Positions 6,496 to 61,298 of a DNA stretch of 61,298 nt are shown here, piece after piece. Position numbers and translations under genes: made by a program. The first letter of the stretch is position 1. Each line of letters opens with the position of its first letter. This stretch comes from Hugenholtzia roseola DSM 9546 (lineage in GTDB: Bacteria; Bacteroidota; Bacteroidia; Cytophagales; Bernardetiaceae), in the NCBI RefSeq assembly GCF_000422585.1, contig NZ_KE383880.1, positions 128,001-189,298 of the forward strand. Reading direction: 5' to 3'. The notes beneath the pieces were generated by a model. It was not told where the DNA came from and did not search any database. It saw only the letters and a program-made list of their open reading frames with translations.

Positions 6496-6659
6496 TTCAG
6501 ACACAAACTTTTTGGTATCTAAAAAATGGCTTCTCTGAAAATAGCTCTCCTGCCGCATGCGCTTTATTTGTTGTCTTTTTTTGTTTTGTAAAAAACGCAA
6601 GGTAGCCATCTTTCGCTGCAAAAGCAAATTTGCGGCATCGAGGATTTTCCAACAGCTTT

Positions 6660-7319
6660 TCAAAAATCTTTGCCTTGCGAAAAATAATCTGCTCCCCCTT
6701 CCTGCGGCTCTATGGCGATAAGACGCGCCAAGGTCATCTTGACCAAAATGGCGGAGGCTTCGGGTATGGAAATGGCGGCAAGTTTGGCGAAATTTTCTAC
6801 ATTGATGCGCTTATGACTCCCCAAATATTTGAGTAGCCACTGCTCTTTTTCGCCATAATTGACAAAGGTATCTTTGGGATTGCTTTCGGCTTTCAAAATC
6901 TTGCGCATCTCACGACTGGCTTGTAGGCTTTTATCCAAACTGCGAATGTAGGCGCGACCGATTTTGCCCTTCGAGTCGTGCAAGAGAAAGACGGGCTTTT
7001 GGGTGTGGGGTTTGATGTCGAAGACCAAGACCTCTTTTCCCTCTGTGCGCGGCACTTCGATTCGATGGAGTTGGTATTCTATCTGCGGCTTGCAAAACTT
7101 TTGCAGGGTAGTGGCAAGTGCGTAAAGTTCCTCGTCGGGGTGTTTGAGTCCATTGATAGTGCCATCATCGGAAACGCCAATAATAAGTTTGCCACCTTTG
7201 GTATTGGCAAAGGCAACGGCTTCACGCGCAATTTTATGCGGATAATAGACTTTGCGTTTAAATTCTATTTCCAAACCTTCGCCTTGTGCAACAAAACGGC
7301 GTAGTTCTTTGAAGGTCAT
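6660..7319 (-). CDS. AlbA_2 (divergent AAA-4 / Schlafen-like) putative DNA-binding domain protein
   Basis: N-terminal ELRRFVAQGEGLEIEFKRKV...REAVAFANTKGGKLIIGVSDDGTINGL is the typical AlbA_2 motif set. Confidence 0.55.
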   Translation of the reverse strand: MTFKELRRFVAQGEGLEIEFKRKVYYPHKIAREAVAFANTKGGKLIIGVSDDGTINGLKHPDEELYALATTLQKFCKPQIEYQLHRIEVPRTEGKEVLVFDIKPHTQKPVFLLHDSKGKIGRAYIRSLDKSLQASREMRKILKAESNPKDTFVNYGEKEQWLLKYLGSHKRINVENFAKLAAISIPEASAILVKMTLARLIAIEPQEGGADYFSQGKDF

Positions 7320-8355: not shown

Positions 8356-10347
8356 TTGGCTTTCCGAAAAGCCTTTTCAAACTATTCATCTTTTGTCTTC
8401 TCTCTCATGACGCGCATCAAGCCCTCGATTTTGGAACTATTGGAAAAGGAAGAGTCCATTTTTTTGAAAATGGATAAATATACGGAGGTGAAAGAAATCA
8501 TCACAACCGACCCCCTTTTCAAAGCCACCTCTTGGGCAGGCTACCGCTTTTTGGCGCAAATGCCCCCTGAATTAGAGCCTATTATCGCCGAATTGGTCTT
8601 CAAGACCATACAAAAGCAAACCCTACAAAGCCTCACACTCAACCAGACGCTGCACCCTTTGTTGCCTTTTTCTATCAAAATTAAGTTCTTTCCTACCGAT
8701 AAAAATACCATAGGCGCAACCCTAACACGATACAAAGAAGATTATATCGCCACTAAATTTTACGAGCGCGTGCCTGTCATGACGCTTTATCTAAATGAAA
8801 CCGACGAGGTAATTTGGGCAAATCAGCAGTTTTATAGGAAAGCAGCCTTCGAGCCTACGCAACTTATTTCAGAAAATGCACGTGATTTTTTGAAAATAAA
8901 TCCCAAAATCTTACAACATGATGCCTTAGCCATCAAAGAGCCGCACCTGCGCACAGAATACAAACTTTTAAAAGGCGATGGAGGCTTTTTGCACGTTATC
9001 CTGACGGCAACGCGCCAATACGACGACGAAGGGCGATTTATTTGTACGGTAGTGGTTTTGCGCGATATTACCGAAATGAAGCTCACCCAAATAGAATTAG
9101 AGTACCAAAAACTTTCTATTGATGAGGCGGCGATTGTGGCGGCTACTGATGCAAAAGGCGATATTATTTATGTCAATAACAAATTTTGTAAGATATCGAA
9201 ATATTCGCGCGAAGAACTGATTGGGCAAAATCACCGCTTGCTCAAATCGGGCTATCATGAGCCTTCTTTTTTTGTAGAGATGTGGAAAACTATCGCTTCG
9301 GGCAAGGTCTGGCGCGGCGAAGTCTGCAACAAAGCCAAAGACGGTTCGCTATATTGGGTCTATACGACGATTATCCCCTTTTTAGACGAAAAAGGAAAGC
9401 CCTACCGCTATCAGTCTATCCGCTTCGAAATTACGAAAAGAAAAGAATTAGAGGACGAAATCAAACACTATACCGAGCATCTGGAAGAAGTAGTAGAGGA
9501 GCGCACACAGGAATTAAAGTTCAAAAGCGATTTGCTTTTTGAAATGAATGAAGAACTGCTGTCGCAAAACGAAAGATTAGAAACTAAAAATAAGTACATT
9601 CAACAAAGCATCAACTATGCCCAACGCATACAAGATGCGATTTTACCCAAAGAGGCACATCTGCCTGCTTTTGTCAAAGATTACTTCCTGCTTTATCAGC
9701 CAAAGGACATTGTTTCGGGCGATTTTTATTGGTGGTATCAAGATGCAGAAACACAGCGTTTTGTGTGGGTCATTGCCGACTGCACAGGGCATGGCGTACC
9801 CGGTGCTTTTATGTCTATGATTGGCATGACGCTTTTAGATGAAATTGTCAAGACCAAAAATATCTTTGCGCCTGCCGAAATTCTCAATCAGATGCGCGTA
9901 GAAATTGGGCGAGCCTTGCAGCAGGATATTACACAAAATCGCGACGGCATGGATATGAGCGTAGTCTGTTTTGAGGGAAAGACCCAAAAAATCCACTTTG
10001 CAGGAGCGCGAAACCCCATTTTATTGATTCAACAAGGGCGTTCTTATTGGCTAAAAGGCGATAAAATGAGCATTGGAGGCAGACTGGTGCGCAACGAACC
10101 TTTCCAAGAACAGACCTTTGATTGGCTCGAAGACACACAAATCTATGCCTTTTCAGATGGCTACGCCGACCAGTTCGGCGGCGAAGACCTGCGCAAATTT
10201 TTGAGTGCCAATTTCCGTAGCCTGCTTCTTTCGCAAGCGCACCTCCCTATGAGCGAACAGAAAGCCGCTATCCAAGCCGCCCACAAAGCATGGAAAGCAG
10301 GGCAAGACCAAATCGACGACATCTTAGTGATGGGCTTGCGGGTGTGA
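8356..10347 (+). CDS. PAS/PAC sensor fused to a SpoIIE/PP2C-type serine phosphatase
   Basis: Two PAS-like blocks (for example IIYVNNKFCKISKYSREELIGQNHRLLKSGYH...GEVCNKAKDGSLYWVYTTIIPFLDEKGKPYRYQSIRFEITKRK). Then a coiled coil, then SINYAQRIQDAILP, DIVSGDFYWW, ADCTGHGVPGAFMSMIG and SDGYADQFGG. The start is ambiguous between 8356, 8407 and 8470. Confidence 0.8.
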   Translation: MAFRKAFSNYSSFVFSLMTRIKPSILELLEKEESIFLKMDKYTEVKEIITTDPLFKATSWAGYRFLAQMPPELEPIIAELVFKTIQKQTLQSLTLNQTLHPLLPFSIKIKFFPTDKNTIGATLTRYKEDYIATKFYERVPVMTLYLNETDEVIWANQQFYRKAAFEPTQLISENARDFLKINPKILQHDALAIKEPHLRTEYKLLKGDGGFLHVILTATRQYDDEGRFICTVVVLRDITEMKLTQIELEYQKLSIDEAAIVAATDAKGDIIYVNNKFCKISKYSREELIGQNHRLLKSGYHEPSFFVEMWKTIASGKVWRGEVCNKAKDGSLYWVYTTIIPFLDEKGKPYRYQSIRFEITKRKELEDEIKHYTEHLEEVVEERTQELKFKSDLLFEMNEELLSQNERLETKNKYIQQSINYAQRIQDAILPKEAHLPAFVKDYFLLYQPKDIVSGDFYWWYQDAETQRFVWVIADCTGHGVPGAFMSMIGMTLLDEIVKTKNIFAPAEILNQMRVEIGRALQQDITQNRDGMDMSVVCFEGKTQKIHFAGARNPILLIQQGRSYWLKGDKMSIGGRLVRNEPFQEQTFDWLEDTQIYAFSDGYADQFGGEDLRKFLSANFRSLLLSQAHLPMSEQKAAIQAAHKAWKAGQDQIDDILVMGLRV

Positions 10348-12296: not shown

Positions 12297-12359
12297 ATTG
12301 CTGCCTTAAAATATGATTTTGCTATGATTGATAGATTTTATCCCTGCTTGTGTTCTCAA

Positions 12360-12485
12360 AATTTGAGCGAAATAAAATTTGGATTGAACCTTTTTCGGGT
12401 CTGAAACGCCTTTGTGTTTCAATCAAACTTAGGACAAGGCAATGCCTTGTCCCTACATTTGAAAATGATTTTTTTAGAACCAAAC
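12360..12485 (+). repeat. MITE-like hairpin repeat, copy 1
   Basis: gaaataaaatttggattgaacc...tttcaatcaaacttaggacaaggcaatgccttgtccctacatttgaa...tttttagaac. Confidence 0.75.
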
Positions 12486-19194: not shown

Positions 19195-19292
19195 CCAAAG
19201 ACTAAGAGCCAACCCTAATTACTATCAACATAACATCATCTATTTATTTGAGGTTTCCTTTTCAATTTTCTAAGTCTGCTGCAAGTTTTGTG
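19195..19292 (-). pseudogene. decayed remnant of the 3' end of a SpoIIE/PP2C sensor gene, paralogous to 20900-20990
   Basis: About 85% nucleotide identity to 20899-20990 (the C-terminal coding end of the 1165-aa phosphatase). Its reverse complement encodes ...QNLQQT*KIEKETSNK*MM...DDVMLIVIRVGS*, aligning with ...QNLQQTLENWKGNLKQIDDITLIGIRIDP*. Two in-frame stops are present. Confidence 0.5.
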
Positions 19293-19564
19293 CTTGCAGG
19301 ATAGGCAGTTGCAAAGAGAATTTTGTGGCTTCAAAGTGGGATTATTTTTTTGCTAATATTTTTCTATTTTACTATCTTTGTAGTATCTTACAATGCAAAG
19401 CCAAGGTTTCGTTATTCGTAGTGTTCCCATAACCAGAAAATAGCCCAAATAGTAGTATTGTCAATAGTGCAAATCTCAAATAGCGGATACAAAAAGGCAT
19501 AAAAAAATAGTAATCTCTAAAAAAAGCGTATCTTCACACTCTAATTTAGCGCATAAAGCCCTTT
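19293..19564. repeat. about 280-bp Rpn-flanking repeat R, copy 1 (immediately upstream of rpn-1)
   Basis: About 90% identical to 20438-20722. It contains the block aaaagcataaaaaaat(a/g)gtaatctctaaaaaaa(g/t)cgta(t/c)cttcacactctaatt(t)agcgcataaag directly before the rpn start codon. Confidence 0.85.
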
Positions 19565-20413
19565 ATGGAAAACGAAAAACCTAATCAAAAAGAACAAAAT
19601 CTTTACGATAAAATTTTAAAGGAAAATATCTTATCGTATGTCTTACAATTTTCAGAAAAACAGTTGGGATTTCGCATCAAAAAGCACGCTTTATTAAAAG
19701 ATAAATTACAAACTACCTTAGAACGAGAGGCGGATTTTCTAATTTTTATCACCACCCAAGACGAAAAAGAATTTATCCTACAATTAGAGTTTCAAGCAAG
19801 AGATGAACCTAATATGGTGCTTCGTATGCAAGAATATCATGCCATTTTACAAAAAAAATACCAAATACCTGTTATTCAAATCGTTTATTACTTAGGCGAA
19901 ACGCCCAGCAATATGCGTGCTACCCTTGCGCCATCAGAGGTTTTCACAGGCTTTCAATTAAAATCTTTTAGAGATTATTCCTACAAAGAGTTTATCGAAT
20001 CTGAAAATGCCGAAGAGGTCATTATGGCAGTTTTGGCGGATTTCGAAAAGGAAAAGCAGGAAGAAGTGATTAGTAAAATTTTATTCCGCCTTTCGCAACT
20101 AAAAACAGATATTACTGCGTTAAATAAGTATGTCAAGCAGTTGCTTGTTTTGGCGCGTTTGCGCAATAAACTTCCAAAAATCATTCAAAACCAATTAGGC
20201 AATATGGGAACGATAGGATACGACATCGAAAAAGATGACTTTTATTTGCAAGGCTTAGAAAAGGGCAAAATAGAAGGTGAACGCGCTGGCGAGTTGAAGG
20301 CTCGTCATGAATTAGCGATTTCTTGCTTACAAGATGGGCTTTCTGTGGAGAAAACTGCTAAACTTACAAAATTATCCATCGAGGAAGTTCGGAAGTTGAG
20401 TAAAGAGTTGTAA
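19565..20413 (+). CDS. Rpn-family (YhgA-like) PD-(D/E)XK recombination-promoting nuclease / putative transposase
   Basis: N-terminal ...LEREADFLIFITTQDEKEFILQLEFQ... carries a D...E-x-Q core as in YhgA/Rpn nucleases. The C-terminal tail has GLEKGKIEGE repeats and an HTH-like end LSVEKTAKLTKLSIEEVRKL. Confidence 0.75.
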   Translation: MENEKPNQKEQNLYDKILKENILSYVLQFSEKQLGFRIKKHALLKDKLQTTLEREADFLIFITTQDEKEFILQLEFQARDEPNMVLRMQEYHAILQKKYQIPVIQIVYYLGETPSNMRATLAPSEVFTGFQLKSFRDYSYKEFIESENAEEVIMAVLADFEKEKQEEVISKILFRLSQLKTDITALNKYVKQLLVLARLRNKLPKIIQNQLGNMGTIGYDIEKDDFYLQGLEKGKIEGERAGELKARHELAISCLQDGLSVEKTAKLTKLSIEEVRKLSKEL

Positions 20414-20437
20414 GCCTGTTAGTCGTCTTCGGCTGTT

Positions 20438-20722
20438 GTTTGTGCAGGATAGTCAGCGGCAAAGAGAATTTTATGGCTCCAAAGTGGGGTTATTTTTTTG
20501 CTAATATTTTTCTATTTTGTTATCTTTGTAGTATCTTACAACGCAAATCCAAGGTTTCGTTATTCGTAGTGTCCCAGTGACCAAAAAGTAACCCGAATAG
20601 TAGTATTGTCAATAGTGCAAAGCTCAAATAACACATACAAAAAAGCATAAAAAAATGGTAATCTCTAAAAAAATCGTACCTTCACACTCTAATTAGCGCA
20701 TAAAGTCTTGTCTTTTCAAATT
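20438..20722. repeat. about 280-bp Rpn-flanking repeat R, copy 2 (downstream of rpn-1), with an orphan promoter-like block not followed by an rpn gene
   Basis: Direct repeat of 19293-19564. It is followed by a MITE-like element and then the 3' end of the phosphatase gene. Confidence 0.85.
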
Positions 20723-20857
20723 TAAAACAAAATAAAATTTGGGCAGAACCCTATTTTTGGGTACTAAAACCCTTTTTTGTTTCAATCTCACTTCGGACAA
20801 GGCAATGCCTTGTCCCTACATTTGAATCTGTTTTTTTAGAATTTAACATCACTGCCC
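20703..20857 (+). repeat. MITE-like hairpin repeat, copy 2
   Basis: Shares aaataaaatttgg ... tttcaatctcacttcggacaaggcaatgccttgtccctacatttgaa ... tttttagaatttaacatcactgcc with the other copies. Confidence 0.75.
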
Positions 20858-20899
20858 TTATAAGGCTTAGTCGCAGACGATAAGCCTTAGCCACGAAGA

Positions 20900-23800
20900 C
20901 TAAGGGTCAATCCTAATTCCTATCAAGGTAATATCATCTATTTGTTTGAGATTTCCCTTCCAATTTTCCAAAGTCTGCTGCAAGTTTTGTTTTTGCGCCT
21001 CTGTTGGCAGTAGAGGCAAAGTAGTGAGTAGATTTTTCAGGTTTGTTACCATAAACTTGCGCCCTCGCTCGCCGCCAAATTGGTCTTGGAAACCGTCAGT
21101 AAGAAGGTAGAAAAAAGTAGGCACTTGAATACTGCCCTGATGTAGCTCAAATTGGCGCGGTTTGTCCTTTTCCAACTGCCCTTGCTGCCCACCGATAGCC
21201 CTTTTCGTACCTTTAAGAATTTGTAGCGTAGGGGTTTGCTCGGCTTCGAGTGGCAAAAAATAAAGCGGATTCATCGCTCCTGCATAAGAAAAGGCAGAAT
21301 AACGCGGTCTTTGAGGTTCAAAATTCGCACTTTTTTCCAATGTTAGCACGACAATGTCCATGCCGTCGCGCACCTGTGAATCTTTTTGTTTGAGTGCTTC
21401 CATAATGCCCTGATGCAGTTGTGTCAGGATTTGAGCAGGCTCGATTATCTTTTCTAAATTGATAATTTTATTTAAAAGTTCGTTTCCTATCATAGACATA
21501 AAAGCACCGGGTACGCCATGCCCTGTGCAATCAGCAACGGCGATAAGTGTATGATTTTCAAGCTCTTGCAAGAAATAAAAATCACCTGAAACGATGTCTT
21601 TGGGCTGATATAAAATAAAGAAGTTTTCCTTTCCAAATGCCTTTTCGAAGCGGCTTTCGAAGGGCAAAATTGCCTCTTGTATGCGTTTGGCGTAATTGAT
21701 GCTGGCAGTGATGTTGTTATTTTTTTCTTCGAGGTCGTCTTTTTGTAGATTGACTAAATCTAAGGTTTGTCGCATTTCCTCATTAAGCTGTTTGAGATTT
21801 TCAGCCTGCACTTCTATTTCTTCTTTTTGCTGCTCTAATTCTAAATTTTTGAGTTGAATTTCCTCTGTTCTTTCCTTAACAAGGCGTTCCAAACGCAGCT
21901 TTGAAGCACGCAGGCGATAGGTATAAGCACGCACAAAGGCATAAAGAAGCCCAAATCCGAGCAATAAGAAAAGTCCATACGCCCACAAACGACGATACCA
22001 AGGCGGTGCAATCGTAAAAGCAACTTTTGTAGGCAAACTTTCTATTTTCTGGCTATTTCGCGCCTGCACCCAAAAAGTATAGTGTCCTTCGGGCAAGTTG
22101 GTGTATTCCTTGCGCCTTTGCTCTGTCCAATCCGACCAAGTTTCTTCATAACCTTCCAACCAATAGCGATAACGATTTTGGTCTTCCTGATAAAAAGAAG
22201 GCGCGGCATAGGTAAAAACAAGCGCATTGAAGCGGTAAGGTAGTTCGAAGGGAGCGATTTGACCACCACTTTCACCTCCAAACAGTAGGCTATCGCGATA
22301 CGCCAAACTGACTTTGCGAATCAAAGTCTGATAAGGGACAGACTTGCCCAAATCGTGTTCGGGTTTGTAGCGAAAAACGCCCAGTGCGGTAGCAAACCAA
22401 AATGTAGGCGATTCGGATTGAGTATCGTAATAAAAGCGCGAAAGATAGTCGGGCAGAGGTGCAAGGGTAAGGGTATCTTGTACCCAAGTGTCGGCTTGAT
22501 TGCCCTGCCCTTTTGTAGGCACTTGTTCAGATTTGAACAACAAAGTCTTAGCCGAGGGCATCACCCAGTAGGAGGGCTTCGAATCGGCGATTTCTTGCAA
22601 AGGCAATAGATAAGGATAGGCAAAACGCGGATTCTGCCAATCCAGACCCCAAGGATTGTAAGACTTAAAAGATTGACTTTTTTCATCAAAAGTATAAATA
22701 CCTGATGCAGTAGAAAAAAGAATTTGGTTCTGCCAAGCGATAATTTTACAACTCTCTATTTTTTCCAAGCCCTTTGTATGGAGTTGTACCTTTGCTGTTT
22801 CTACGCCTTTTTTTGAACCTCTATCTTCCTGAAAATCAATAGAATAGAAACCTTCCTTAGGCGACCCCACCCACACTCTACCATCTGCCTGCTCCTGCAC
22901 AGAGCGCGAAATGACCTGCTCGAAGGCGGGAATCTTGCCCACACGCAAAAATTTATCTTCTTCTGCCTGATAGCGCAGCACCTCAAAGCCTTGATAGTTG
23001 GCTTTATAGACAATGTTGCTATCTATTTTAGAACGCCCAATCGCCATATTTGCCCATTCGCCATCTATATTTTGTGCAATTTTTTTGTTTTTGATGTAAT
23101 AAAACCCATAATTTCCACCTGCCACAATTAGGTCATCTTGAAAAGGCAGGAGCTGCCAACATTGTGTAGAAGGCAAGTTTGCTATGCGTTTGAATAGCTC
23201 TGCTTCCAGATAAAAAAGTCCATCGTTGGCGGAAACATATAAGGTTTGGTCGGCACTACGACAAATATCTGTCGTATAACTTTTCAAATTTTGTGGCTCT
23301 TTGTAGGCTGTAAAAGGTAGATGAATCGCAATTTGACTCAAACCCTTATCGGTTGCTACCCAAAGTGCCTGATTTTTATCTACAAAAACATAGTTAATGC
23401 TATTACTAATTAGACCAGAAGCCTCGTCTATGTGGTACAAAGTTTTCCCTGCGGCATTAAAAATTAGCACCCCTCTATCTTTAATGCCTAATACATAAAT
23501 ATCCTCGCCTTTTTTATCCTTTAAATGCGTGGCTACATAAACGCCCCTATCTTTGAGCAAATGCTGGTCTTCGAGCGGAAAAGCACTCACTTGTTTGCTT
23601 TCAATATCATACAAAAAAAGAGAGTCTATATTAAGCGGACAAAATAAAATTTTCTTCTGACCATAAGGCAGAGCCGCACGCAGGCTTAGGCTATGCGTAA
23701 AGATGTAATGCTCGCTTTCTAAAATCCATTTTTGATTTTCGAATCGGTACAAGCCCTTGCTGGTTTCATTTTTCCAAAAACCTGTACCTACTTCAAAGAT

Positions 23801-24397
23801 GTCTATTTTATCCGTTTCTGCCTCTACCTGATGATAAGAAAAGGTGCTATCTTGGGTATGAAAAATGTAGAGCCTATCTTCGCTCGAAAAGTAAAGGTCT
23901 TTTTCTATTTGATGCACCTCGGTAATAAAGGGCGTTTTCTCGATGCTATCAGGCAGGTACGGACGTAGAGAATGGTACTGCCATTTCCCTAAGGCGTTGA
24001 TTTTGAGATAGCCAAGGTCGTCATCATTGGCGACATAAGCAAGTGTAGGGTCTTTTTTATCAAAAAGCAAATGCCGAACTACGCCCCCACCTGTCTGCAT
24101 CTGCTGCCACTCTGCACCATCATAGACGAGCAAAGCGTCGCGATTGCCTACATATAATTTGCCTTGTGCGTCTTGCGCAAGCGTCCAGAGAACGGACGAG
24201 GCTTGATAGATTTTCTTGTCATAATTCTGAATAAAAGGCGTTCCCCAGCGTAAAGTAGGAGCGAGAGTCTGCTTTGCATTTGAAAGTTCTTTTTTTTGGC
24301 TCTTTGCCTCAAATGTACAAAAAAACGCAAGCCCAAGCAAAAAAACAACTTTGAGCCAATATCTAAAAAAAATGTGTGTGAAAAAGAAAGGAGTCAT
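20900..24397 (-). CDS. sensor protein: signal peptide, two-component-regulator-propeller (Reg_prop) repeats, Y_Y_Y domain, TM helix, coiled coil, SpoIIE/PP2C phosphatase
   Basis: 1165 aa. The long N-terminal beta-propeller-like region is followed by YRYWLEGYEETWSDWTEQRRKEYTNLPEGHYTFWVQARNS (Y_Y_Y) and the TM helix WAYGLFLLLGFGLLYAFV. Then SINYAKRIQEAILP, DIVSGDFYF, ADCTGHGVPGAFMSMIG and TDGFQDQFGG. Confidence 0.8.
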   Translation of the reverse strand: MTPFFFTHIFFRYWLKVVFLLGLAFFCTFEAKSQKKELSNAKQTLAPTLRWGTPFIQNYDKKIYQASSVLWTLAQDAQGKLYVGNRDALLVYDGAEWQQMQTGGGVVRHLLFDKKDPTLAYVANDDDLGYLKINALGKWQYHSLRPYLPDSIEKTPFITEVHQIEKDLYFSSEDRLYIFHTQDSTFSYHQVEAETDKIDIFEVGTGFWKNETSKGLYRFENQKWILESEHYIFTHSLSLRAALPYGQKKILFCPLNIDSLFLYDIESKQVSAFPLEDQHLLKDRGVYVATHLKDKKGEDIYVLGIKDRGVLIFNAAGKTLYHIDEASGLISNSINYVFVDKNQALWVATDKGLSQIAIHLPFTAYKEPQNLKSYTTDICRSADQTLYVSANDGLFYLEAELFKRIANLPSTQCWQLLPFQDDLIVAGGNYGFYYIKNKKIAQNIDGEWANMAIGRSKIDSNIVYKANYQGFEVLRYQAEEDKFLRVGKIPAFEQVISRSVQEQADGRVWVGSPKEGFYSIDFQEDRGSKKGVETAKVQLHTKGLEKIESCKIIAWQNQILFSTASGIYTFDEKSQSFKSYNPWGLDWQNPRFAYPYLLPLQEIADSKPSYWVMPSAKTLLFKSEQVPTKGQGNQADTWVQDTLTLAPLPDYLSRFYYDTQSESPTFWFATALGVFRYKPEHDLGKSVPYQTLIRKVSLAYRDSLLFGGESGGQIAPFELPYRFNALVFTYAAPSFYQEDQNRYRYWLEGYEETWSDWTEQRRKEYTNLPEGHYTFWVQARNSQKIESLPTKVAFTIAPPWYRRLWAYGLFLLLGFGLLYAFVRAYTYRLRASKLRLERLVKERTEEIQLKNLELEQQKEEIEVQAENLKQLNEEMRQTLDLVNLQKDDLEEKNNNITASINYAKRIQEAILPFESRFEKAFGKENFFILYQPKDIVSGDFYFLQELENHTLIAVADCTGHGVPGAFMSMIGNELLNKIINLEKIIEPAQILTQLHQGIMEALKQKDSQVRDGMDIVVLTLEKSANFEPQRPRYSAFSYAGAMNPLYFLPLEAEQTPTLQILKGTKRAIGGQQGQLEKDKPRQFELHQGSIQVPTFFYLLTDGFQDQFGGERGRKFMVTNLKNLLTTLPLLPTEAQKQNLQQTLENWKGNLKQIDDITLIGIRIDP

Positions 24398-24780
24398 ATC
24401 GTGCCAATGCTATTTTTGGGTAGCCCCTGAAAGGCGCAAGAAAGGAGCGCGGTGAGAAAAACTATTTTTTGCCTACCAATAAGATGCTTTTCAGCGCATT
24501 TTACACATTTTTCGCCACAAAAAAGCTATTTTTTTGTTTTTTTTAGAAAAAAAGCTCTCAATAGCAAGCCCTACGATAGTTATTTCTGGAAATAAGTAAG
24601 GAAGAATAGGCTTAAACTCTGCTTTATCCGTATTCAAAAAAACACGCCTTTGGTCTTGTTCCACGACTACAACCTACCTTTTCAGCAAAGCTCAAATAAA
24701 ACGTACAAAAAAGCATAAAAAATGTAGTCGTATCCAAAAAAATTGTACCTTCACACTCTAATTAGCGCATAAAATCTTTT

Positions 24781-25641
24781 ATGGAAGACAAAAAACCTAA
24801 TCAAAAAGAACAAAACCTTTACGATAAAATTTTAAAAGAAAATATCTTATCGTATGTCTTGCAATTTTCAGAAAGGCAGTTGGGATTTTACATTAAAAAA
24901 CACGCTTTATTAAAAGATAAACTACAAACCACCTTAGAACGAGAAGCCGACTTTTTAGTTCTTATCACCACCCAAGACGAAAAAGAATTTATCCTGCAAT
25001 TAGAATTTCAGGCAAGAGATGAGCCAAATATGGTACTTCGCATGCAAGAGTATCATGCTATCTTACAAAAGAAGTATCAAAAACCTATTATTCAAATCGT
25101 ATATTACTTAGGTGAAACGCCCAGTAATATGCGTGCTACCCTTGCGCCTTCGGAGGTTTTTACAGGCTTTCAATTAAAATCTTTTAGAGATTATTCTTAC
25201 AAAGAATTTATCGAATCTGAAAATGCCGAAGAGGTCATTATGGCAGTTTTGGCGGATTTCGGAAAGGAAAAACAGGAAGAAGTCGTCAGTAAAATTTTAT
25301 TCCGCCTTTCGCAACTAAAAAGCGACGTTACTGCGTTAAATAAGTATGTCAAGCAGTTGCTTGTTTTAGCGCGTTTGCGCAATAAACTTCCAAAAATCAT
25401 TCAAAACCAATTAGGCGATATGGGAACGATAGGATACGACATCGAAAAAGATGACCTTTATTTACAAGGTTTGCAAAAGGGCGAGTTAAGAGGCTTAGAG
25501 AAAGGCTTAGAGAAAGGAAAGCTCGAAGCTCGCCGTGAATTAGCAATTTCTTGCTTACAAGACGGGCTTTCTGTAGAGAAAACTGCTAAACTTACAAAAC
25601 TATCCATCGAGGAAGTTCGCAAGTTGAGTGAGGAATTGTAA
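24781..25641 (+). CDS. Rpn-family PD-(D/E)XK nuclease, paralog of 19565-20413
   Basis: About 93% aa identity to rpn-1. It carries an 11-aa insertion (LRGLEKGLEKG) in the EKG-repeat tail. The same upstream promoter-like block lies at 24700-24780. Confidence 0.75.
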   Translation: MEDKKPNQKEQNLYDKILKENILSYVLQFSERQLGFYIKKHALLKDKLQTTLEREADFLVLITTQDEKEFILQLEFQARDEPNMVLRMQEYHAILQKKYQKPIIQIVYYLGETPSNMRATLAPSEVFTGFQLKSFRDYSYKEFIESENAEEVIMAVLADFGKEKQEEVVSKILFRLSQLKSDVTALNKYVKQLLVLARLRNKLPKIIQNQLGDMGTIGYDIEKDDLYLQGLQKGELRGLEKGLEKGKLEARRELAISCLQDGLSVEKTAKLTKLSIEEVRKLSEEL

Positions 25642-25728
25642 GTTTATTAGGTGTACTTCGTCGTTACTTGTGCAGGATAGTGAGTGGCAAAAACAATTTT
25701 GTAGCTTCAAAGGGTGTTTTTTGCTATT

Positions 25729-25790
25729 TTTGTAGTATCTTACAGCGCAAATCAAAGATTTGCCGCACTGATAGGTCGTAGTCGGAGACT
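25729..25790. repeat. inverted-repeat element IR-a (left arm)
   Basis: tttttgtagtatcttacagcgcaaatcaaagatttgccgcactgatagg is the reverse complement, with few mismatches, of 26826-26877 and 27243-27294. It contains the internal hairpin gcaaatc-aaa-gatttgc. Confidence 0.7.
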
Positions 25791-25883
25791 ACGCCCAACG
25801 GGGGCTTATCCCACTGGCGTTAAAAGCGTGGATTGGTACGTAAATGATAAAAAAGGAAACAAAGTAATAATTCAAAAAATAAA

Positions 25884-26303
25884 ATGAAAAAATTTTTTTT
25901 ATATTTAATAGCTATTTTTACGTTACTTTCTAGTAATAGTGCAAAAAACACAAGCGTGGTTTTAGACAGTAATACGCAATACTACATAAAAAAAGTAAAA
26001 AAAGTAAAAAAATGGTATATTATTTACGCAATGAAAAACAAAGTATTATATAAAATAGTTTCAAAAGATGACAATACTTTTAACAAAAACTGCAATAAAA
26101 TAACTATTGGAAAACAATATGATTTAATTTTGAAATCGCACAAAGAGTCTGCACCAGTCATTAATGGAGTTCTTATTGCTCCTGTTGGATATAGTGGATG
26201 TTATCATTTTGATAGTGAAACGACTATATGTTTAGAACCTAATAAAGATATTTATGATTTATTTTATACAAATAACTTAAAAGGAATTTGCTATGTTAAA
26301 TAA
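25884..26303 (+). CDS. hypothetical secreted/lipoprotein-like small protein, very low GC (possible orphan immunity protein)
   Basis: N-terminal signal peptide MKKFFLYLIAIFTLLSSNSA. GC is visibly far lower than the about 46% surroundings. It lies immediately upstream of, and overlaps, the RHS C-terminal fragment. Confidence 0.4.
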   Translation: MKKFFLYLIAIFTLLSSNSAKNTSVVLDSNTQYYIKKVKKVKKWYIIYAMKNKVLYKIVSKDDNTFNKNCNKITIGKQYDLILKSHKESAPVINGVLIAPVGYSGCYHFDSETTICLEPNKDIYDLFYTNNLKGICYVK

Positions 26304-26787
26304 AAACTTCTGGCAATACAACGGCAAGGAGAAGGAGACGTTTTTGGGGCTGCACCTCACCGACTACGGCTGGCGACAACAAGACCCACAACTTTGTAGG
26401 TTTTGGGGTATAAACCCGCTGGCAGAGAAGTATTACAGCCTCACGCCCTTTGCCTATGTAGCCAATAATCCTATCAATGCGATTGACCCTGATGGGAGGG
26501 AGATAACCTACACTTTTTCTGAAGATATGACAGGTGAAGAAAAAATGGAATTTTTACAAGGTCTTTCTAAATTATACGAAGATTCTAATACTTTTCAAAC
26601 AATGTTTGATGATTTAGCTTCTTCCAAACATGAACATAAAATACAAATATTTGGATATAACTCAAAAGACGTAAACAACCGCGAACATACGACTAACCCT
26701 GATGACAAAATTGGTAGGGGTAGCCAGATGAACTTGGGGCTTGGTGGCTCCCCCGTTGTCCGCAGTGTTCCCATAACCAAAGAATAA
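26293..26787 (+). CDS. orphan RHS-repeat-associated core C-terminal fragment plus variable C-terminal (putative toxin) domain
   Basis: NFWQYNGKEKETFLGLHLTDYGWRQQDPQLCRFWGINPLAEKYYSLTPFAYVANNPINAIDPDGRE is the conserved RHS/YD core end (NGKEKD...YDYGARxYDPxLGRF...DPL...Y.YV.NNP...DPDG). Beyond it lies a divergent, AT-rich 95-aa tail. There is no upstream RHS repeat body. Confidence 0.7.
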   Translation: MLNKNFWQYNGKEKETFLGLHLTDYGWRQQDPQLCRFWGINPLAEKYYSLTPFAYVANNPINAIDPDGREITYTFSEDMTGEEKMEFLQGLSKLYEDSNTFQTMFDDLASSKHEHKIQIFGYNSKDVNNREHTTNPDDKIGRGSQMNLGLGGSPVVRSVPITKE

Positions 26788-26825
26788 ACCAAAAGTTTGG
26801 CGTAGCCTCCGACTACGACCTATCA

Positions 26826-26877
26826 GTGCGGCAAATCTTAGATTTGCGTTGTAAGATACTGCAAAAATAGTCTTTAC
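26826..26877. repeat. inverted-repeat element IR-b (right arm, copy 1)
   Basis: cctatcagtgcggcaaatcttagatttgcgttgtaagatactgcaaaaatag is identical over about 52 bp to 27243-27294 and inverted relative to 25729-25790. Confidence 0.75.
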
Positions 26878-27294: not shown

Positions 27295-27424
27295 CAAAAA
27301 ACAAATACAAAATGCTATTTTTTAGATGTTTTGATAGCAGCAGCCCTGCAAAGCGAAGATTTAGTTTTATTTTTTGTATTCAGAAGACTTTGCCGAATGG
27401 GGAGTAGCAATATCAAGTCTTGCG

Positions 27425-27545
27425 AAAAGCCTTATCTTATTAAATTGGAAACAAAATAAAATTAGGCTCAAACCTTGTTTTGAGCCTAAAAACTCTTTTT
27501 ATTTCAATCTCACTTCGGACAAGGCAGTGCCTTGTCCCTACTCAC
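27425..27545 (+). repeat. MITE-like hairpin repeat, copy 3
   Basis: ...ttggaaacaaaataaaattaggctcaaaccttgttttgagcct...tttcaatctcacttcggacaaggcagtgccttgtccctac. Confidence 0.75.
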
Positions 27546-27755: not shown

Positions 27756-28607
27756 CTATTTGGGTGCAATGACCCCTAATTTTTTCTGCAACTGATTCAA
27801 GACCTGCTTGATTTCGTCGAGCGAAGTTTCCGCCTCTGGCGTTTTTTTGCTGATGTAGGCAGCGAATTTCCAAATCTCCTTGACCTGACGCGCAGGGAGT
27901 TCGTAGGGGCGATACTGCAAGTTGGTAGATTCTAATAAAAAAGTACCCTTTTCTTTGACCTGATTATGAACTCTTTTAAAGACAATTCCCTCGTCTTGGG
28001 CTACTAAGACGCAAAATTCGCCTTCTTTCAGGTCGTTCCAATCGGCAACATACTCACCAATCACAATCGTACCCGATTCAAGCGGTAGCATCGAGTCGCC
28101 CGAAATTTCGAAGGAGCGGTAGGTGCGCTCGGCAGGGAGAAAAGGCAATTTAAACTTGGGTAGCTCTTTGATATATTCCAAATCGGCATACCCTTTGGCA
28201 TACCCTGCGGCAGCTTTCTGTGGCACTAATTCGATGTTTTCGTTGTTTAGCTCATCTACCGAAATAGCCAAAACACGCACATTTGTACCTGCTACGTAAT
28301 TCCCCACTTGTAGGCGGTGGTAGGCACTCCAATAAGGGGTATTGACTCTTTGTCGGAATTTGCGCTCCTCTAAATTTTCGTTGAGCAGTTCATCTACAGT
28401 AACTTCAAAATAATTTGCCATAGCGACAAGCGTATCGAGGCGCGGTTCGGCTCTGCCCTCCTCGTAGGAAGAATAAGCCCCGCGCGTGATGCCTAATTTA
28501 TCGGCAATGACTTCCTGACTCTTTTTGCGTGTGTTGCGGGTGCGTAAAAAGCGAAGATTATTGCTAAGATGCATAGTTTTGAAATTTTTTACTAAGGAAA
28601 TTTGCAA
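27756..28607 (-). CDS. HTH-XRE DNA-binding domain fused to an S24 (LexA/CI-like) self-cleaving peptidase domain; repressor-like
   Basis: N-terminal LRFLRTRNTRKKSQEVIADKLGITRGAYSSYEEGRAEP (HTH_3). C-terminal FEISGDSMLPLESGTIVIGEYV...FKRV, an S24 Ser-Lys dyad context. Confidence 0.8.
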   Translation of the reverse strand: MQISLVKNFKTMHLSNNLRFLRTRNTRKKSQEVIADKLGITRGAYSSYEEGRAEPRLDTLVAMANYFEVTVDELLNENLEERKFRQRVNTPYWSAYHRLQVGNYVAGTNVRVLAISVDELNNENIELVPQKAAAGYAKGYADLEYIKELPKFKLPFLPAERTYRSFEISGDSMLPLESGTIVIGEYVADWNDLKEGEFCVLVAQDEGIVFKRVHNQVKEKGTFLLESTNLQYRPYELPARQVKEIWKFAAYISKKTPEAETSLDEIKQVLNQLQKKLGVIAPK

Positions 28608-48090: not shown

Positions 48091-48289
48091 GCCCTTTCAA
48101 TATCATAAAAAACGGCTATGTTTATAGACTTTTACGGAACTAATCGGAAAACTGGTTAGTTCTATTTTTTATTTTTATATTTTTTTCGTATTTTTTAAAT
48201 CTAAAAATTTATACCTCCCCTATCCTGCAAGACTTTTTTTCACAAAAATCAAAGCCCTGCTGCTTTCCCCGTTGATGTTAAGTTCTGGA

Positions 48290-48456
48290 AAAAGTCTTGT
48301 TTTTCGAATGAGAAACAAAATAAAATTTGGGCTGAACCTTATTTTTTGGCAGGAAAACTCTTTTTTATTTCAATCTCACGACAGGTAGGGCAGTAGCTTA
48401 TCCCTATCTTTCCACCTACTAACTTTTAGAATTTAATACCACTGCCGCTTTCCCTC
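48290..48456 (+). repeat. MITE-like hairpin repeat, copy 4 (variant central hairpin)
   Basis: ...cgaatgagaaacaaaataaaatttgggctgaacc...tttcaatctcacgacaggtagggcagtagcttatccctatc...tttagaatttaataccactgcc. Confidence 0.7.
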
Positions 48457-54684: not shown

Positions 54685-54761
54685 AACCTATGAATGTGGA
54701 AACTAATAGAAAAAACAGTTAAAAAATATTTTATATTCAATTAAATTCTGTTACGTTTTAT

Positions 54762-54868
54762 GAAAAGCCTTGTCTTTTCGAATTGGAAACGAAATAAAAT
54801 TTGGGTCTGAAAGCCTTTTTTATTTCAATCTCACTTCGGACAAGGCAGTGCCTTGTCCCTACAAAAGC
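54762..54868 (+). repeat. MITE-like hairpin repeat, copy 6
   Basis: gccttgtcttttcgaattggaaacgaaataaaatttgggtctgaaagcc...tttcaatctcacttcggacaaggcagtgccttgtccctac. Confidence 0.75.
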
Positions 54869-54904
54869 AAACGATTTTTTGGTGTAAAACAAGCCTCCTG
54901 AACC

Positions 54905-60902: not shown

Positions 60903-61298
60903 TCATTTTTTTTCCTTGCGCAGTGCCTCTATTTGTTCAAAAGTCAAGCCTGTCAGTTTTGAAATGATTGCGTTATTAAAACCTTCTAAAATAGCATTTT
61001 TCGCAATTTCAATCGCCTTTTCTTTTTTGAGTTCCAACTCCTTCTGTTCGAGGTCTCGCTTTGTCTGCTCGATTTCTCGCTTTTTCTGTTCGAGTTCCAA
61101 CTCTTTCTGTTTGAGTTCCAACTCTTTTGTGTAGGCTACGCTTATTTCTATTCGGCGATTTTCTACCGAACGGTCATACATTTTCTTTTCTAAATCTGTA
61201 AGACTTTCATAGCGCAATTTTTCCTTTGCTTTATCCAAGCCTTTCGCCCTAAAAGTATCTTTTACTTCGCTATTTTTTAAAAAATAAATCCATTCGTC
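60903..61298 (-). CDS. Rpn-family PD-(D/E)XK nuclease, third and more divergent paralog; C-terminal part only, the gene continues beyond the window end
   Basis: The reading frame is open from 61298. It encodes ...GRMDLFLKNSEVKDTFRAKGLDKAKEKLRYESLTDLEKKMYDRSVENRRIEI...EIAKNAILEGFNNAIISKLTGLTFEQIEALRKEKK. The charged coiled tail and terminal HTH-like LTGLTFEQIEAL are typical of Bacteroidota Rpn/YhgA-like proteins. Confidence 0.5.
   Translation of the reverse strand, partial: DEWIYFLKNSEVKDTFRAKGLDKAKEKLRYESLTDLEKKMYDRSVENRRIEISVAYTKELELKQKELELEQKKREIEQTKRDLEQKELELKKEKAIEIAKNAILEGFNNAIISKLTGLTFEQIEALRKEKK

What the first reader, a model, noticed from the sequence alone, without database searches (positions are those of the whole stretch)
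19195..25790. Two near-identical Rpn-family nuclease genes in direct orientation bracket a 3.5-kb propeller-sensor PP2C phosphatase gene
The genes at 19565-20413 and 24781-25641 encode about 93% identical YhgA/Rpn-like PD-(D/E)XK proteins. They differ by an 11-aa indel in the EKG-repeat tail. Both sit on the + strand, and each is preceded by the same promoter-like block. They flank the 1165-aa Reg_prop/Y_Y_Y/PP2C sensor gene, which is on the minus strand. In E. coli, Rpn proteins act as recombination-promoting nucleases. Here the paralogs and their flanking repeats form a composite-transposon-like or cassette-shuffling architecture. Homologous recombination between the copies could excise or invert the sensor gene. 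A third, more divergent Rpn paralog lies at the window end (60903-61298).
Basis: partly seen in the sequence, partly recalled or inferred. Interest (0 to 1): 0.6.

Follow-up and report, generated by a model that had tools for sequence, protein, structure and literature searches.

The report
Duplicated Rpn nuclease genes flanking sensor
Two old duplicate copies of a divergent Rpn-type nuclease gene, a family known from E. coli as a toxin with a built-in antitoxin that defends against phages, sit on either side of an ordinary sensor-phosphatase gene, and nothing indicates that the three genes form a transposon or a shuffling cassette.

Summary
Two + strand genes (19565-20413, 282 aa; 24781-25641, 286 aa) are 90% identical in protein. 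They bracket a minus-strand Reg_prop/Y_Y_Y/SpoIIE sensor (20900-24397). The source is Hugenholtzia roseola (Cytophagales), where RefSeq calls both genes "hypothetical protein".

They get no Pfam Transposase_31 hit and fall below the TIGR01784 cutoff. Other evidence still places them in the Rpn family as a divergent clade:
- A profile-profile comparison with E. coli RpnA and TIGR01784 members gives 99% probability.
- All five RpnA catalytic residues are conserved.
- The predicted core has the PD-(D/E)XK fold.
- The helical tail carries 4-residue repeats.

The "11-aa indel" is really one 4-aa (12-nt) repeat unit inside a scrambled zone. Five ~90% identical paralogs in this genome carry 3, 4, 5, 5 and 7 repeats. 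This matches the hypervariability published for the RpnL toxin / RpnS antitoxin pair. An invariant Met lies 17 residues before the repeats and is a candidate internal start.

The copies are old: dS 0.43, dN/dS 0.11, 84.5% DNA identity, longest identical tract 55 nt. They have no terminal inverted repeats and no target-site duplication, and no transposase or integrase gene was found nearby. Homologues elsewhere are solo genes, and the sensor's closest available homologue has no rpn neighbours. The composite-transposon or cassette reading is not supported, and direct repeats could only delete the sensor, not invert it. This is a new member of a known kind and of low interest.

The parts
19198..19297 (-). 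Decayed copy (R') of the last ~27 codons plus stop of the sensor gene. It forms a 100-nt direct repeat with 20896-20996.
   Evidence: blastn gives 85% over 101 nt. tblastn gives 64% aa identity to sensor residues 1139-1163, with two in-frame stops.
19295..19558 (+). U1, a block made of three pieces: a copy of the rpn downstream block with the promoter-like E element (TTTG-N20-TATCTTTG at 19373), a short relic of the Rhs-tip ORF end (19410-19449), and the ~95-nt rpn upstream block (19469-19561).
   Evidence: 90% identical to 20443-20705. Alignments. Promoter motif scan. Relic.
19565..20413 (+). rpn1, a divergent Rpn-family nuclease gene (282 aa, WP_027002853.1). It is the predicted long (RpnL-like) product.
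20204..20413 (+). Candidate internal in-frame product of rpn1 (RpnS-like, 69 aa). It starts at invariant Met214 and contains 3 tetrapeptide repeats.
   Evidence: Met is invariant in 64 homologues and in 20 homologue DNAs. Repeats begin 17 residues after the Met, inside the published 8-20 range. Expression was not tested.
20443..20705 (+). U2, a second copy of the U block after rpn1. Its upstream-block part (20617-20709) is an orphan with no gene behind it. It ends about 5 nt before where the ATG would be and is fused to the intergenic repeat.
   Evidence: The period of 1148 nt corresponds to 1.25 tandem units.
20702..20856 (.). Dispersed intergenic repeat with the hairpin GGACAAGGCAATGCCTTGTCC. 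Five copies are present in the window.
   Evidence: Window self-blast..
20900..24397 (-). Sensor phosphatase of 1165 aa (Reg_prop propeller, Y_Y_Y, SpoIIE/PP2C; WP 'triple tyrosine motif-containing protein'). It is interpreted as a bystander gene.
24685..24778 (+). Conserved upstream block of rpn2.
24781..25641 (+). rpn2, a divergent Rpn-family nuclease gene (286 aa, WP_027002855.1).
25420..25641 (+). Candidate internal RpnS-like product of rpn2 (73 aa) with 4 tetrapeptide repeats. The predicted structure is a long helix followed by two short helices.
25491..25517 (+). Perfect 12-nt tandem repeat (2.2 copies, AGGCTTAGAGAA). One unit equals one 4-aa repeat and is a substrate for repeat-number change.
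   Evidence: TRF.
25649..25761 (+). Downstream block of rpn2. It ends inside the promoter-like E element, which continues to 25799 as one arm of a 76-nt inverted repeat.
60903..61298 (-). C-terminal 131 aa of a third, distantly related Rpn-like gene, cut by the window end. It has a 21-nt x 4.7 tandem repeat (7-aa units) and an HTH-like tail.

Best explanation
The two genes are old paralogous copies of a divergent, Cytophagales-type Rpn-family nuclease gene (TIGR01784 / COG5464). The family has at least five ~90% identical copies in Hugenholtzia roseola.

By analogy with the characterised E. coli Rpn proteins, each gene most likely works as a self-contained toxin-antitoxin or antiphage module:
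- The full-length protein (RpnL-like) is a PD-(D/E)XK DNA endonuclease.
- A short C-terminal protein (RpnS-like) would start at the invariant internal Met214. It would bind the long form through the helical tail and hold it inactive.
- The number of 4-residue repeats in that helix sets which short protein neutralises which long one. Paralogs with 3, 4, 5, 5 and 7 repeats would therefore be insulated from one another.

The copies came to lie on both sides of the sensor gene by local segmental or tandem duplication and illegitimate recombination. This left a patchwork of junction fragments around rpn1. The sensor phosphatase is an unrelated bystander.

What is shown: family membership, catalytic residues, fold, repeat variation, age and selection on the copies, and the absence of transposon features. 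What is inferred: the internal start, antitoxin function, toxicity and phage defence.
For: Family:
- TIGR01784 matches at E 2e-7 and 3e-9 over nearly the full model.
- Relatives at 25% identity pass the TIGR01784 cutoff.
- hhalign of the 64-sequence family profile against E. coli RpnA plus two TIGR01784 members gives probability 99.0%, E 6.7e-18, 234 columns.
- RpnA catalytic residues D11/D63/E82/Q84/R94 (PMC5350276) correspond to D15/D57/E75/Q77/R87 by motif order and near-identical spacing; the hhalign alignments pair the core residues D57-D63, E75-E82, Q77-Q84 and R87-R94. All are invariant or nearly invariant here.
- The AlphaFold model has pLDDT 88.8 and an alpha-beta-beta-beta-alpha-beta core. 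Best PDB fold matches are PD-(D/E)XK nucleases: EndoMS/NucS, restriction enzymes, Hjc.
- Homologues are named RpnC/YadD, YhgA-like or TIGR01784 by their sources.

Tail:
- Five paralogs of 282, 286, 290, 290 and 298 aa differ by multiples of 4 aa in (L/I)(E/Q)KG repeats.
- rpn2 contains a perfect 12-nt tandem repeat.
- Metagenomic near-identical homologues differ by one IEKG unit.
- This matches the published 4-aa repeat hypervariability and the repeat-number specificity of RpnS for RpnL (PMC10400941).
- Met214 is invariant in 64 proteins and 20 DNAs and lies 17 residues before the repeats.
- The C-terminal model is a long helix plus two short helices with HTH-like fold matches, as described for RpnA_S.

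Both copies functional and old: dN/dS 0.11 and dS 0.43.

Duplication rather than transposition:
- 1.25 tandem units of 1148 nt around rpn1.
- No TIR or TSD.
- No transposase or integrase domain in the neighbouring genes scanned.
- Homologues elsewhere are solo genes.
Against: - No Pfam PF04754 hit, and TIGR01784 scores are below the curated cutoff.
- PADLOC has no match.
- The solved RpnA_S structure 7TH0 is not among the fold matches of the C-terminal model, and no match there is significant.
- No canonical Bacteroidota promoter motif lies at a fixed position upstream of the conserved internal ATG in 20 homologues, so a separate short transcript is unsupported.
- The surroundings are not a recognisable defence island.
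- Toxicity, antitoxin activity and phage defence are untested for this clade.
Confidence: 0.7

Rival explanations
1. Composite-transposon-like or cassette-shuffling unit. The two rpn copies act as the ends of a mobile or excisable element that carries the sensor gene. Recombination between them excises or inverts it.
For: - Two direct repeats of about 1.08 kb bracket a single gene.
- The family is multi-copy in the genome.
- Rpn overexpression raises RecA-independent recombination in E. coli (PMC5350276).
Against: - No TIRs at the unit ends and no TSD.
- PD-(D/E)XK Rpn proteins are not known transposases, and their flanks have variable ends (PMC10400941).
- The repeats are direct, so inversion is impossible.
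- 15.5% divergence, a longest identical tract of 55 nt and dS 0.43 show long stable coexistence.
- The sensor's closest available homologue lacks rpn neighbours.
- rpn homologues are solo genes in two other genomes examined.
Confidence: 0.04
2. Each ~1.08-kb rpn unit (upstream block + gene + downstream block) is an independently mobile selfish element. Copies inserted separately on either side of the sensor.
For: - At least five copies of ~90% identity lie on four contigs.
- The two window copies share the same left (19469 / 24685) and right (20557 / 25761) homology boundaries.
- The upstream block is specific to the H. roseola copies and is absent from the nearest homologue.
Against: - No TIR or TSD.
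- The right boundary falls inside an independently dispersed promoter-like repeat, E, found 5 times.
- An orphan upstream block and a tandem 1.25-unit structure point to duplication and deletion.
- The published analysis finds no autonomous transposition.
Confidence: 0.1
3. The genes encode Rpn-family nucleases with a housekeeping or recombination role and no gene-within-gene antitoxin. The conserved Met214 and the repeat variation are structural features only.
For: - No internal promoter motif was found.
- There is no PADLOC hit.
- The genes are not in a defence island.
- Zhong et al. allow that some Rpn proteins may have housekeeping roles.
Against: - A Met that stays invariant over 38-100% identity while its neighbours vary.
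- Its position relative to the repeats matches RpnS starts.
- Repeat numbers are distinct in every close paralog, or the sequence differs where numbers are equal.
Confidence: 0.15
4. Functional coupling: the sensor phosphatase regulates, or is regulated by, the flanking Rpn proteins.
For: Adjacency only. rpn2 and the sensor are divergently arranged around a 383-nt intergenic region.
Against: - Synteny is not conserved. rpn homologues and sensor homologues occur apart.
- The window holds four SpoIIE proteins, so such genes are simply abundant here.
Confidence: 0.03

Closest known systems
E. coli RpnA-E / RpnP2 (Rpn, YhgA-like; Pfam PF04754, TIGR01784, COG5464): RpnL toxin with intragenic RpnS antitoxin. 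Kingston et al. 2017 (PMC5350276); Zhong et al. 2023 (PMC10400941).
   Same: - Homologous over about 234 columns (hhalign 99%).
- Same five catalytic residues with near-identical spacing.
- PD-(D/E)XK core followed by a helical tail.
- Number of 4-aa repeats is hypervariable; RpnC uses KGIE, these proteins use (L/I)(E/Q)KG.
- A Met lies 8-20 residues before the repeats.
- Multi-copy, with no TIR or TSD, and tandem or segmental duplications with variable ends.
   Different: - Too divergent for PF04754 and below the TIGR01784 cutoff.
- RefSeq names them hypothetical proteins.
- Expression of a short product, toxicity and phage defence are untested.
- No internal promoter is recognisable.
- The RpnS-like part is longer (69-73 aa, against 49 aa for RpnA_S).
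Bacteroidota / Firmicutes 'PD-(D/E)XK nuclease family transposase' genes (PDDEXK_2-type TIGR01784 members).
   Same: The window-end fragment 60903-61298 resembles these. It is 49% identical over 47 aa to a Flammeovirga gene annotated as Rpn family and has the same HTH-like tail.
   Different: rpn1 and rpn2 share only the tail with that fragment (29% over 58 aa). The fragment uses 7-aa (21-nt) repeats rather than 4-aa repeats.
Composite transposons (two IS copies bracketing passenger genes).
   Same: Two homologous ~1-kb units in direct orientation bracket one gene.
   Different: The units encode no known transposase. They lack terminal inverted repeats and target-site duplications, are 15% diverged, and nothing shows that the block has moved.

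Membership tests
Rpn family (YhgA-like; PF04754 / TIGR01784 / COG5464) | Match to Pfam PF04754 Transposase_31 above the gathering score | tested here: not met
   No hit even at E <= 10. The E. coli RpnA control scores 305.9 bits.
Rpn family (YhgA-like; PF04754 / TIGR01784 / COG5464) | Match to NCBIfam TIGR01784 above the curated cutoff (52.1 bits) | tested here: not met
   Scores are 30.9 and 37.0 bits (E 2.3e-7 and 3.1e-9), with rpn2 covering model positions 52-273 of 273. The H. roseola paralog P0005 scores 46.4 bits. Relatives L002 and L018 pass at 59.1 and 56.1 bits.
Rpn family (YhgA-like; PF04754 / TIGR01784 / COG5464) | Homology to bona fide members by profile-profile comparison | tested here: met
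   hhalign of A4 against A8 (E. coli RpnA plus two proteins above the TIGR01784 cutoff) gives probability 99.0%, E 6.7e-18, 234 columns.
Rpn family (YhgA-like; PF04754 / TIGR01784 / COG5464) | Catalytic residues equivalent to RpnA D11, D63, E82, Q84 and R94 | tested here: met
   D15, D57, E75, Q77 and R87 are invariant or at least 90% conserved in 64 homologues. The core aligns residue for residue with RpnA. RpnA residues are taken from PMC5350276.
Rpn family (YhgA-like; PF04754 / TIGR01784 / COG5464) | PD-(D/E)XK alpha-beta-beta-beta-alpha-beta nuclease fold | tested here: met
   AlphaFold model has pLDDT 88.8 with helix 8-28, strands 38-43, 58-64 and 69-77, helix 84-99 and strand 103-109. 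Top Foldseek PDB hits are EndoMS/NucS (prob 1.00, E 6e-3), restriction enzymes and Hjc. No E-value is below 1e-3.
RpnL/RpnS gene-within-gene toxin-antitoxin | C-terminal helical domain with a variable number of 4-aa repeats | tested here: met
   Five paralogs carry 3, 4, 5, 5 and 7 xxxG tetrads, and their lengths differ by multiples of 4. rpn2 has a 12-nt perfect tandem repeat. The model shows a long helix plus two short helices.
RpnL/RpnS gene-within-gene toxin-antitoxin | In-frame internal start 8-20 residues upstream of the repeats | tested here: inconclusive
   The ATG for Met214 is invariant in 64 proteins and 20 DNAs and lies 17 residues before the repeats. No conserved TAnnTTTG promoter lies upstream. 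Translation from this ATG cannot be tested here.
RpnL/RpnS gene-within-gene toxin-antitoxin | Structural match of the short domain to RpnA_S (PDB 7TH0) | tested here: inconclusive
   7TH0 is identified as RpnA residues 244-292. It is not among the top 50 Foldseek hits of the C-terminal model, and all E-values exceed 0.6. The hits are HTH domains, in line with the HHpred remark in PMC10400941.
RpnL/RpnS gene-within-gene toxin-antitoxin | Long form toxic, short form neutralises it; protection against phage | not testable with these tools
   This needs experiments. PADLOC 2.0 has no matching model.
Composite transposon / IS element | Terminal inverted repeats at the unit ends | tested here: not met
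   Only weak AT-rich chance matches of 12-24 nt, most 70-87% complementary; none joins the two unit ends (24685 and 25761, or 19469 and 20557).
Composite transposon / IS element | Target-site duplications flanking the unit or the composite | tested here: not met
   The flanks of copy 1 (..CAATAGT | CGTTATT..) and of copy 2 (..CTTTTCA | GCCGCAC..) share no duplication.
Composite transposon / IS element | A transposase of a known class encoded in the unit | tested here: not met
   The only gene in each unit is the Rpn-like nuclease. No DDE, serine, tyrosine or HUH domain was found in the unit or in the neighbours scanned. The literature finds no autonomous PD-(D/E)XK transposase.
Composite transposon / IS element | Presence or absence polymorphism, or relocation of the block, in related genomes | not testable with these tools
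   The source genome and any second Hugenholtzia genome are absent from the collections. The closest sensor homologue is only 42% identical.

The most novel reading that the evidence does not exclude
The five ~90% identical H. roseola paralogs are a set of mutually orthogonal RpnL/RpnS pairs kept apart by repeat number (3, 4, 5, 5, 7).

The patchwork around rpn1 is then a preserved footprint of Rpn-promoted illegitimate recombination by break repair and template switching. The pieces of that patchwork are:
- a 100-nt copy of the sensor's 3' end;
- a 40-nt copy of an Rhs-tip ORF end;
- an orphan upstream block fused to an intergenic repeat at the shared octamer AAAGTCTT;
- 264-nt direct repeats around the gene.

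On this reading the nuclease reshapes its own neighbourhood. The low-dS tract just upstream of Met214 (dS 0.08 against 0.65 in the 5' half) would mark an embedded regulatory signal for the short product.
Probability: 0.15. Interest if true: 0.5.

Novelty: new member of a known kind. Interest (0 to 1): 0.22.

Why it matters
The practical value is for annotation. A Cytophagales-wide clade of Rpn-family nucleases (167 clusters found) escapes Pfam and the NCBIfam cutoff. RefSeq labels the H. roseola copies as hypothetical proteins, although they keep every catalytic residue and the repeat-bearing tail of characterised Rpn toxin-antitoxin and antiphage proteins.

The locus also gives a within-genome example of close paralogs that differ almost only in 4-aa repeat number. 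This is the property shown in E. coli to set antitoxin specificity. It does not reveal a new mobile-element architecture.

Tried and rejected
- **Source genome.** Exact-protein look-ups for rpn2 and for H. roseola paralogs P0001, P0002 and P0005 found nothing. The genome-contig scan lacks the source genome and any close relative. The flanks of the three other paralogs and strain-level variation could therefore not be examined.
- **Family profile against PDB sequences.** No hit.
- **AlphaFold database (afdb50) fold search.** The library was unavailable.
- **hhalign against E. coli RpnA alone.** This gave only a 51-column core match at 7% probability. A three-sequence template was needed.
- **Internal or antisense promoter.** There is no exact TAnnTTTG on the + strand inside either gene. 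None sits at a fixed position upstream of the conserved ATG in 20 homologues. The antisense TAnnTTTG near the 3' end of both window copies is absent from homologues, so it was rejected as chance. The sigma-70-type scan gave fewer promoter-like sites than the shuffles.
- **Upstream block as a conserved regulatory region.** It is not conserved in the nearest homologue.
- **PADLOC.** No match for the rpn genes, the sensor or most neighbours.
- **rpn2 against plasmids.** No match.
- **286-aa gene near the Bernardetia sensor homologue.** It is not an rpn gene.
- **Foreign origin from base composition.** GC is 0.36-0.40 across 18-28 kb, but similar values occur elsewhere in the window.

Full report
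**1. What is in the sequence**

The window holds two + strand ORFs, 19565-20413 (282 aa) and 24781-25641 (286 aa). Between them lies a 1165-aa minus-strand ORF, 20900-24397. It has Reg_prop, Y_Y_Y and SpoIIE (PP2C) domains, and its C-terminal part matches the SiaA phosphatase model.

The two small proteins are 90% identical (258/286), not the 93% reported. At DNA level the homology runs 19469-20557 versus 24685-25761, 85% over 1104 nt. Each unit is therefore about 1.08 kb: about 95 nt upstream, the gene, and about 115-145 nt downstream.

Exact matches identify the source as Hugenholtzia roseola (Bernardetiaceae, Cytophagales). The accessions are WP_027002853.1 and WP_027002855.1, and both are named 'hypothetical protein'.

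**2. Is it Rpn?**

- Pfam gives nothing even at E <= 10. E. coli RpnA scores 306 bits on PF04754 as a control.
- NCBIfam TIGR01784 ('Rpn family recombination-promoting nuclease/putative transposase') matches at E 2.3e-7 and 3.1e-9, covering model positions 52-273 for rpn2. The scores of 31 and 37 bits are below the 52.1-bit cutoff.

Four further tests nevertheless place the proteins in the family.
- (i) More distant relatives found with this protein pass the TIGR01784 cutoff (59.1 and 56.1 bits).
- (ii) A 64-sequence profile of the clade was compared with an alignment of E. coli RpnA plus those two proteins. The result is hhalign probability 99.0%, E 6.7e-18 over 234 columns, from the catalytic core to the C-terminus.
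- (iii) The residues whose mutation inactivates RpnA are D11, D63, E82, Q84 and R94 (PMC5350276). They correspond to D15, D57, E75, Q77 and R87 here. These have near-identical spacing and are invariant or nearly invariant in 64 homologues.
- (iv) The AlphaFold model (pLDDT 88.8) has the alpha-beta-beta-beta-alpha-beta PD-(D/E)XK core. Its best PDB fold matches are PD-(D/E)XK nucleases: EndoMS/NucS, restriction enzymes and Hjc. These matches carry weak E-values.

Several homologues at 43-50% identity are already labelled RpnC/YadD, YhgA-like, YdaD or TIGR01784 by their sources. I therefore file the genes as a divergent clade of the Rpn family and note that two curated thresholds are not met.

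**3. The tail**

The 'EKG-repeat' difference is not an 11-aa indel. The net difference is one tetrapeptide (12 nt) within a scrambled zone of about 16 residues.

H. roseola has three more paralogs of about 90% identity on other contigs: WP_027003191.1, WP_027001854.1 and WP_027001331.1. It also has a 57% paralog (P0005).
- The five close copies are 282, 286, 290, 290 and 298 aa long.
- They differ almost only in having 3, 4, 5, 5 or 7 xxxG tetrads after 'YLQG'. The two copies with five tetrads differ in sequence.
- rpn2 carries a perfect 12-nt tandem repeat at 25491-25517.
- Near-identical metagenomic homologues differ by one IEKG unit.

This is the behaviour published for Rpn proteins. Zhong et al. 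2023 (PMC10400941) report the following.
- rpn genes encode a toxic long nuclease (RpnL) and, from an internal start, a short C-terminal antitoxin (RpnS).
- The shared helix carries 4-aa repeats (for example KGIE) whose number varies between strains.
- RpnS neutralises only RpnL with the same repeat number.
- The repeats begin 8-20 residues after the RpnS start.
- A plasmid-borne Rpn protects against T-even phages.

Here Met214 is invariant in 64 proteins spanning 42-100% identity. Its ATG is present in all 20 distinct homologue DNAs examined. It lies 17 residues before the first repeat.

The C-terminal 73 aa is predicted as one long helix plus two short ones, with HTH-like fold matches. This agrees with the description of RpnA_S. 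The solved RpnA_S structure (7TH0) is not among the hits, and none of the hits is significant.

**4. Age and selection**

Between rpn1 and rpn2, dS is 0.43, dN is 0.048 and dN/dS is 0.11. DNA identity is 84.5%, and the longest identical tract is 55 nt. Both copies are therefore maintained by purifying selection and are old. They are not 'near-identical' at DNA level.

dS is uneven along the gene:

| Codons | dS |
|---|---|
| 1-117 | 0.65 |
| 118-170 | 0.30 |
| 171-218 | 0.08 |
| tail after the repeats (last 40 codons) | 0.51 |

The low-dS tract ends at Met214. It could be a gene-conversion tract or an embedded signal for the short product. I could not separate the two. No canonical Bacteroidota promoter (TAnnTTTG) lies there or at a conserved position in homologues.

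**5. Local anatomy beyond the finding**

rpn1 sits in a patchwork of duplicated pieces.
- A 264-nt block occurs on both sides of rpn1: 19295-19558 (U1) and 20443-20705 (U2), 90% identical. This amounts to 1.25 units of an 1148-nt tandem repeat.
- Each block joins three pieces: a copy of the rpn downstream sequence, a short linker, and the rpn upstream block.
- The upstream block in U2 (20617-20709) is an orphan. It stops about 5 nt before the expected ATG. There it meets a dispersed intergenic repeat (20702-20856, five copies in the window) at a shared AAAGTCTT.
- The linker contains a copy of the last ten codons of the Rhs-tip ORF at 26293-26787 (VIRSVPITRK*).
- Left of U1, 19198-19297 is a decayed copy of the sensor's last ~27 codons (85% nt identity, two in-frame stops). 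It forms a 100-nt direct repeat with 20896-20996, and the pair brackets the whole rpn1 patch.
- The downstream block ends in a promoter-like element (TTTG-N20-TAnnTTTG followed by GTATCTTACAACGCAAATC). This element occurs five times between 19.3 and 27.3 kb, in both orientations.

This picture fits the published description of rpn neighbourhoods: tandem direct duplication of genomic segments, variable ends, and no TIR or TSD.

**6. Tests of the transposon or cassette idea**

- No terminal inverted repeats join the unit ends, and no target duplications flank either unit.
- Most neighbouring genes have housekeeping, surface or secretion domains. They include an amino-acid kinase-family gene, VWA, ArsA ATPase, a transglutaminase-like gene, a glucosaminidase, PKD, a DFP/flavoprotein gene, and an LRR protein with a CHU_C type IX secretion signal next to a PorP/SprF gene. 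No integrase or transposase domain was found.
- rpn homologues in a Bernardetiaceae MAG and in a 7.7-Mb genome are solo genes in unrelated contexts.
- The sensor has no close relative in the databases; the best is 42% identical. That homologue has no rpn neighbours.
- Because the repeats are direct, recombination could delete or duplicate the sensor but never invert it.
- With 15.5% divergence and tracts of at most 55 identical bases, such recombination should be rare. This expectation rests on established knowledge of how homologous recombination depends on sequence identity.
- The high dS shows that the arrangement has persisted.
- The strain-comparison test could not be done. The source genome and any congener are missing from the searchable collections.

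**7. The third 'paralog'**

The stretch 60903-61298 lies on the minus strand and holds only the last 131 residues of a gene cut by the window end.
- It shares only the HTH-like tail with rpn2 (29% over 58 aa, E 0.004).
- It matches the TIGR01784 tail weakly (E 0.029).
- Its first 47 residues are 49% identical to a Flammeovirga gene annotated as Rpn family (E 1e-6).
- Its repeats have a 21-nt (7-aa) period, not 12 nt.

It is probably an Rpn-family gene of a different clade. This cannot be proved from the fragment.

**8. Verdict**

The architecture reading is not supported.

The best explanation is a pair of old paralogous Rpn modules, most likely of the RpnL/RpnS type, that came to flank a bystander sensor gene through local duplication and illegitimate recombination. 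This is a new member of a known kind. Its main value is for annotation, since the clade escapes the curated models, and as a within-genome illustration of repeat-number diversification.

Noticed in passing
window 25724-26870: An orphan Rhs toxin tip (26293-26787; TIGR03696 RHS core domain, E 2e-11, above cutoff) and a small signal-peptide-like ORF (25884-26303) lie between 76-nt inverted repeats (25724-25799 and 26795-26870, 93%). Each arm carries the promoter-like E element pointing inward. The segment could be invertible or a recombination cassette. No full-length Rhs gene was noticed in the window, but I did not search for one.
   Followed up: partly
window 19377, 20525, 25729 (+); 26841, 27265 (-): A promoter-like repeat matches the Bacteroidota consensus (TTTG-N20-TAnnTTTG) and is followed by a shared leader, GTATCTTACAACGCAAATC(T)AAGATTTGC, with a hairpin. 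It occurs five times within 8 kb and nowhere else in the window. After the shared part, two different continuations are seen.
   Followed up: partly
window 12347-12479, 20702-20856, 27424-27541, 48276-48446, 54749-54880: A dispersed intergenic repeat of about 120-155 nt (75-82% identity) contains the G+C-rich hairpin GGACAAGGCA(A/G)TGCCTTGTCC. It resembles a REP/MITE element or a shared terminator module.
   Followed up: no
window 19198-19297 and 20896-20996: 100-nt direct repeats of the sensor gene's 3' end bracket the whole 1.6-kb rpn1 patch. The left copy has decayed, with two in-frame stops. This looks like a templated filler copy at a repair junction rather than a transposase-made target duplication.
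   Followed up: partly
window 20075-20218 / 25291-25434 (codons 171-218 of rpn1 / rpn2): Synonymous divergence drops to 0.08 directly upstream of the conserved internal Met, against 0.65 in the 5' half. A 67-aa antisense ORF (19981-20184 and 25197-25400, minus strand) is kept in both copies within the broader low-divergence stretch (about codons 118-218), overlapping codons 171-207. The cause could be a gene-conversion tract or an embedded signal. This is unresolved.
   Followed up: partly
window 4408-6663 (-), 8356-10347 (+), 20900-24397 (-), 45583-47520 (-): The 61-kb window holds four SpoIIE/PP2C phosphatase genes with different sensor modules (7TMR-DISM, PAS, propeller/Y_Y_Y, and none recognised). 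They share DNA-level similarity in the phosphatase domain.
   Followed up: partly
window 27756-28607 (-): A 283-aa HTH_3 + Peptidase_S24 protein (LexA/CI-like self-cleaving repressor) lies just beyond the Rhs-tip region. It gives weak PADLOC matches to HTH control proteins only.
   Followed up: no
window 61029-61127: The window-end Rpn-like fragment has a 21-nt tandem repeat (4.7 copies, 76% matches) that encodes ELELKQK-type heptads. The repeat unit differs from the 4-aa unit of rpn1 and rpn2 and of published Rpn proteins.
   Followed up: partly
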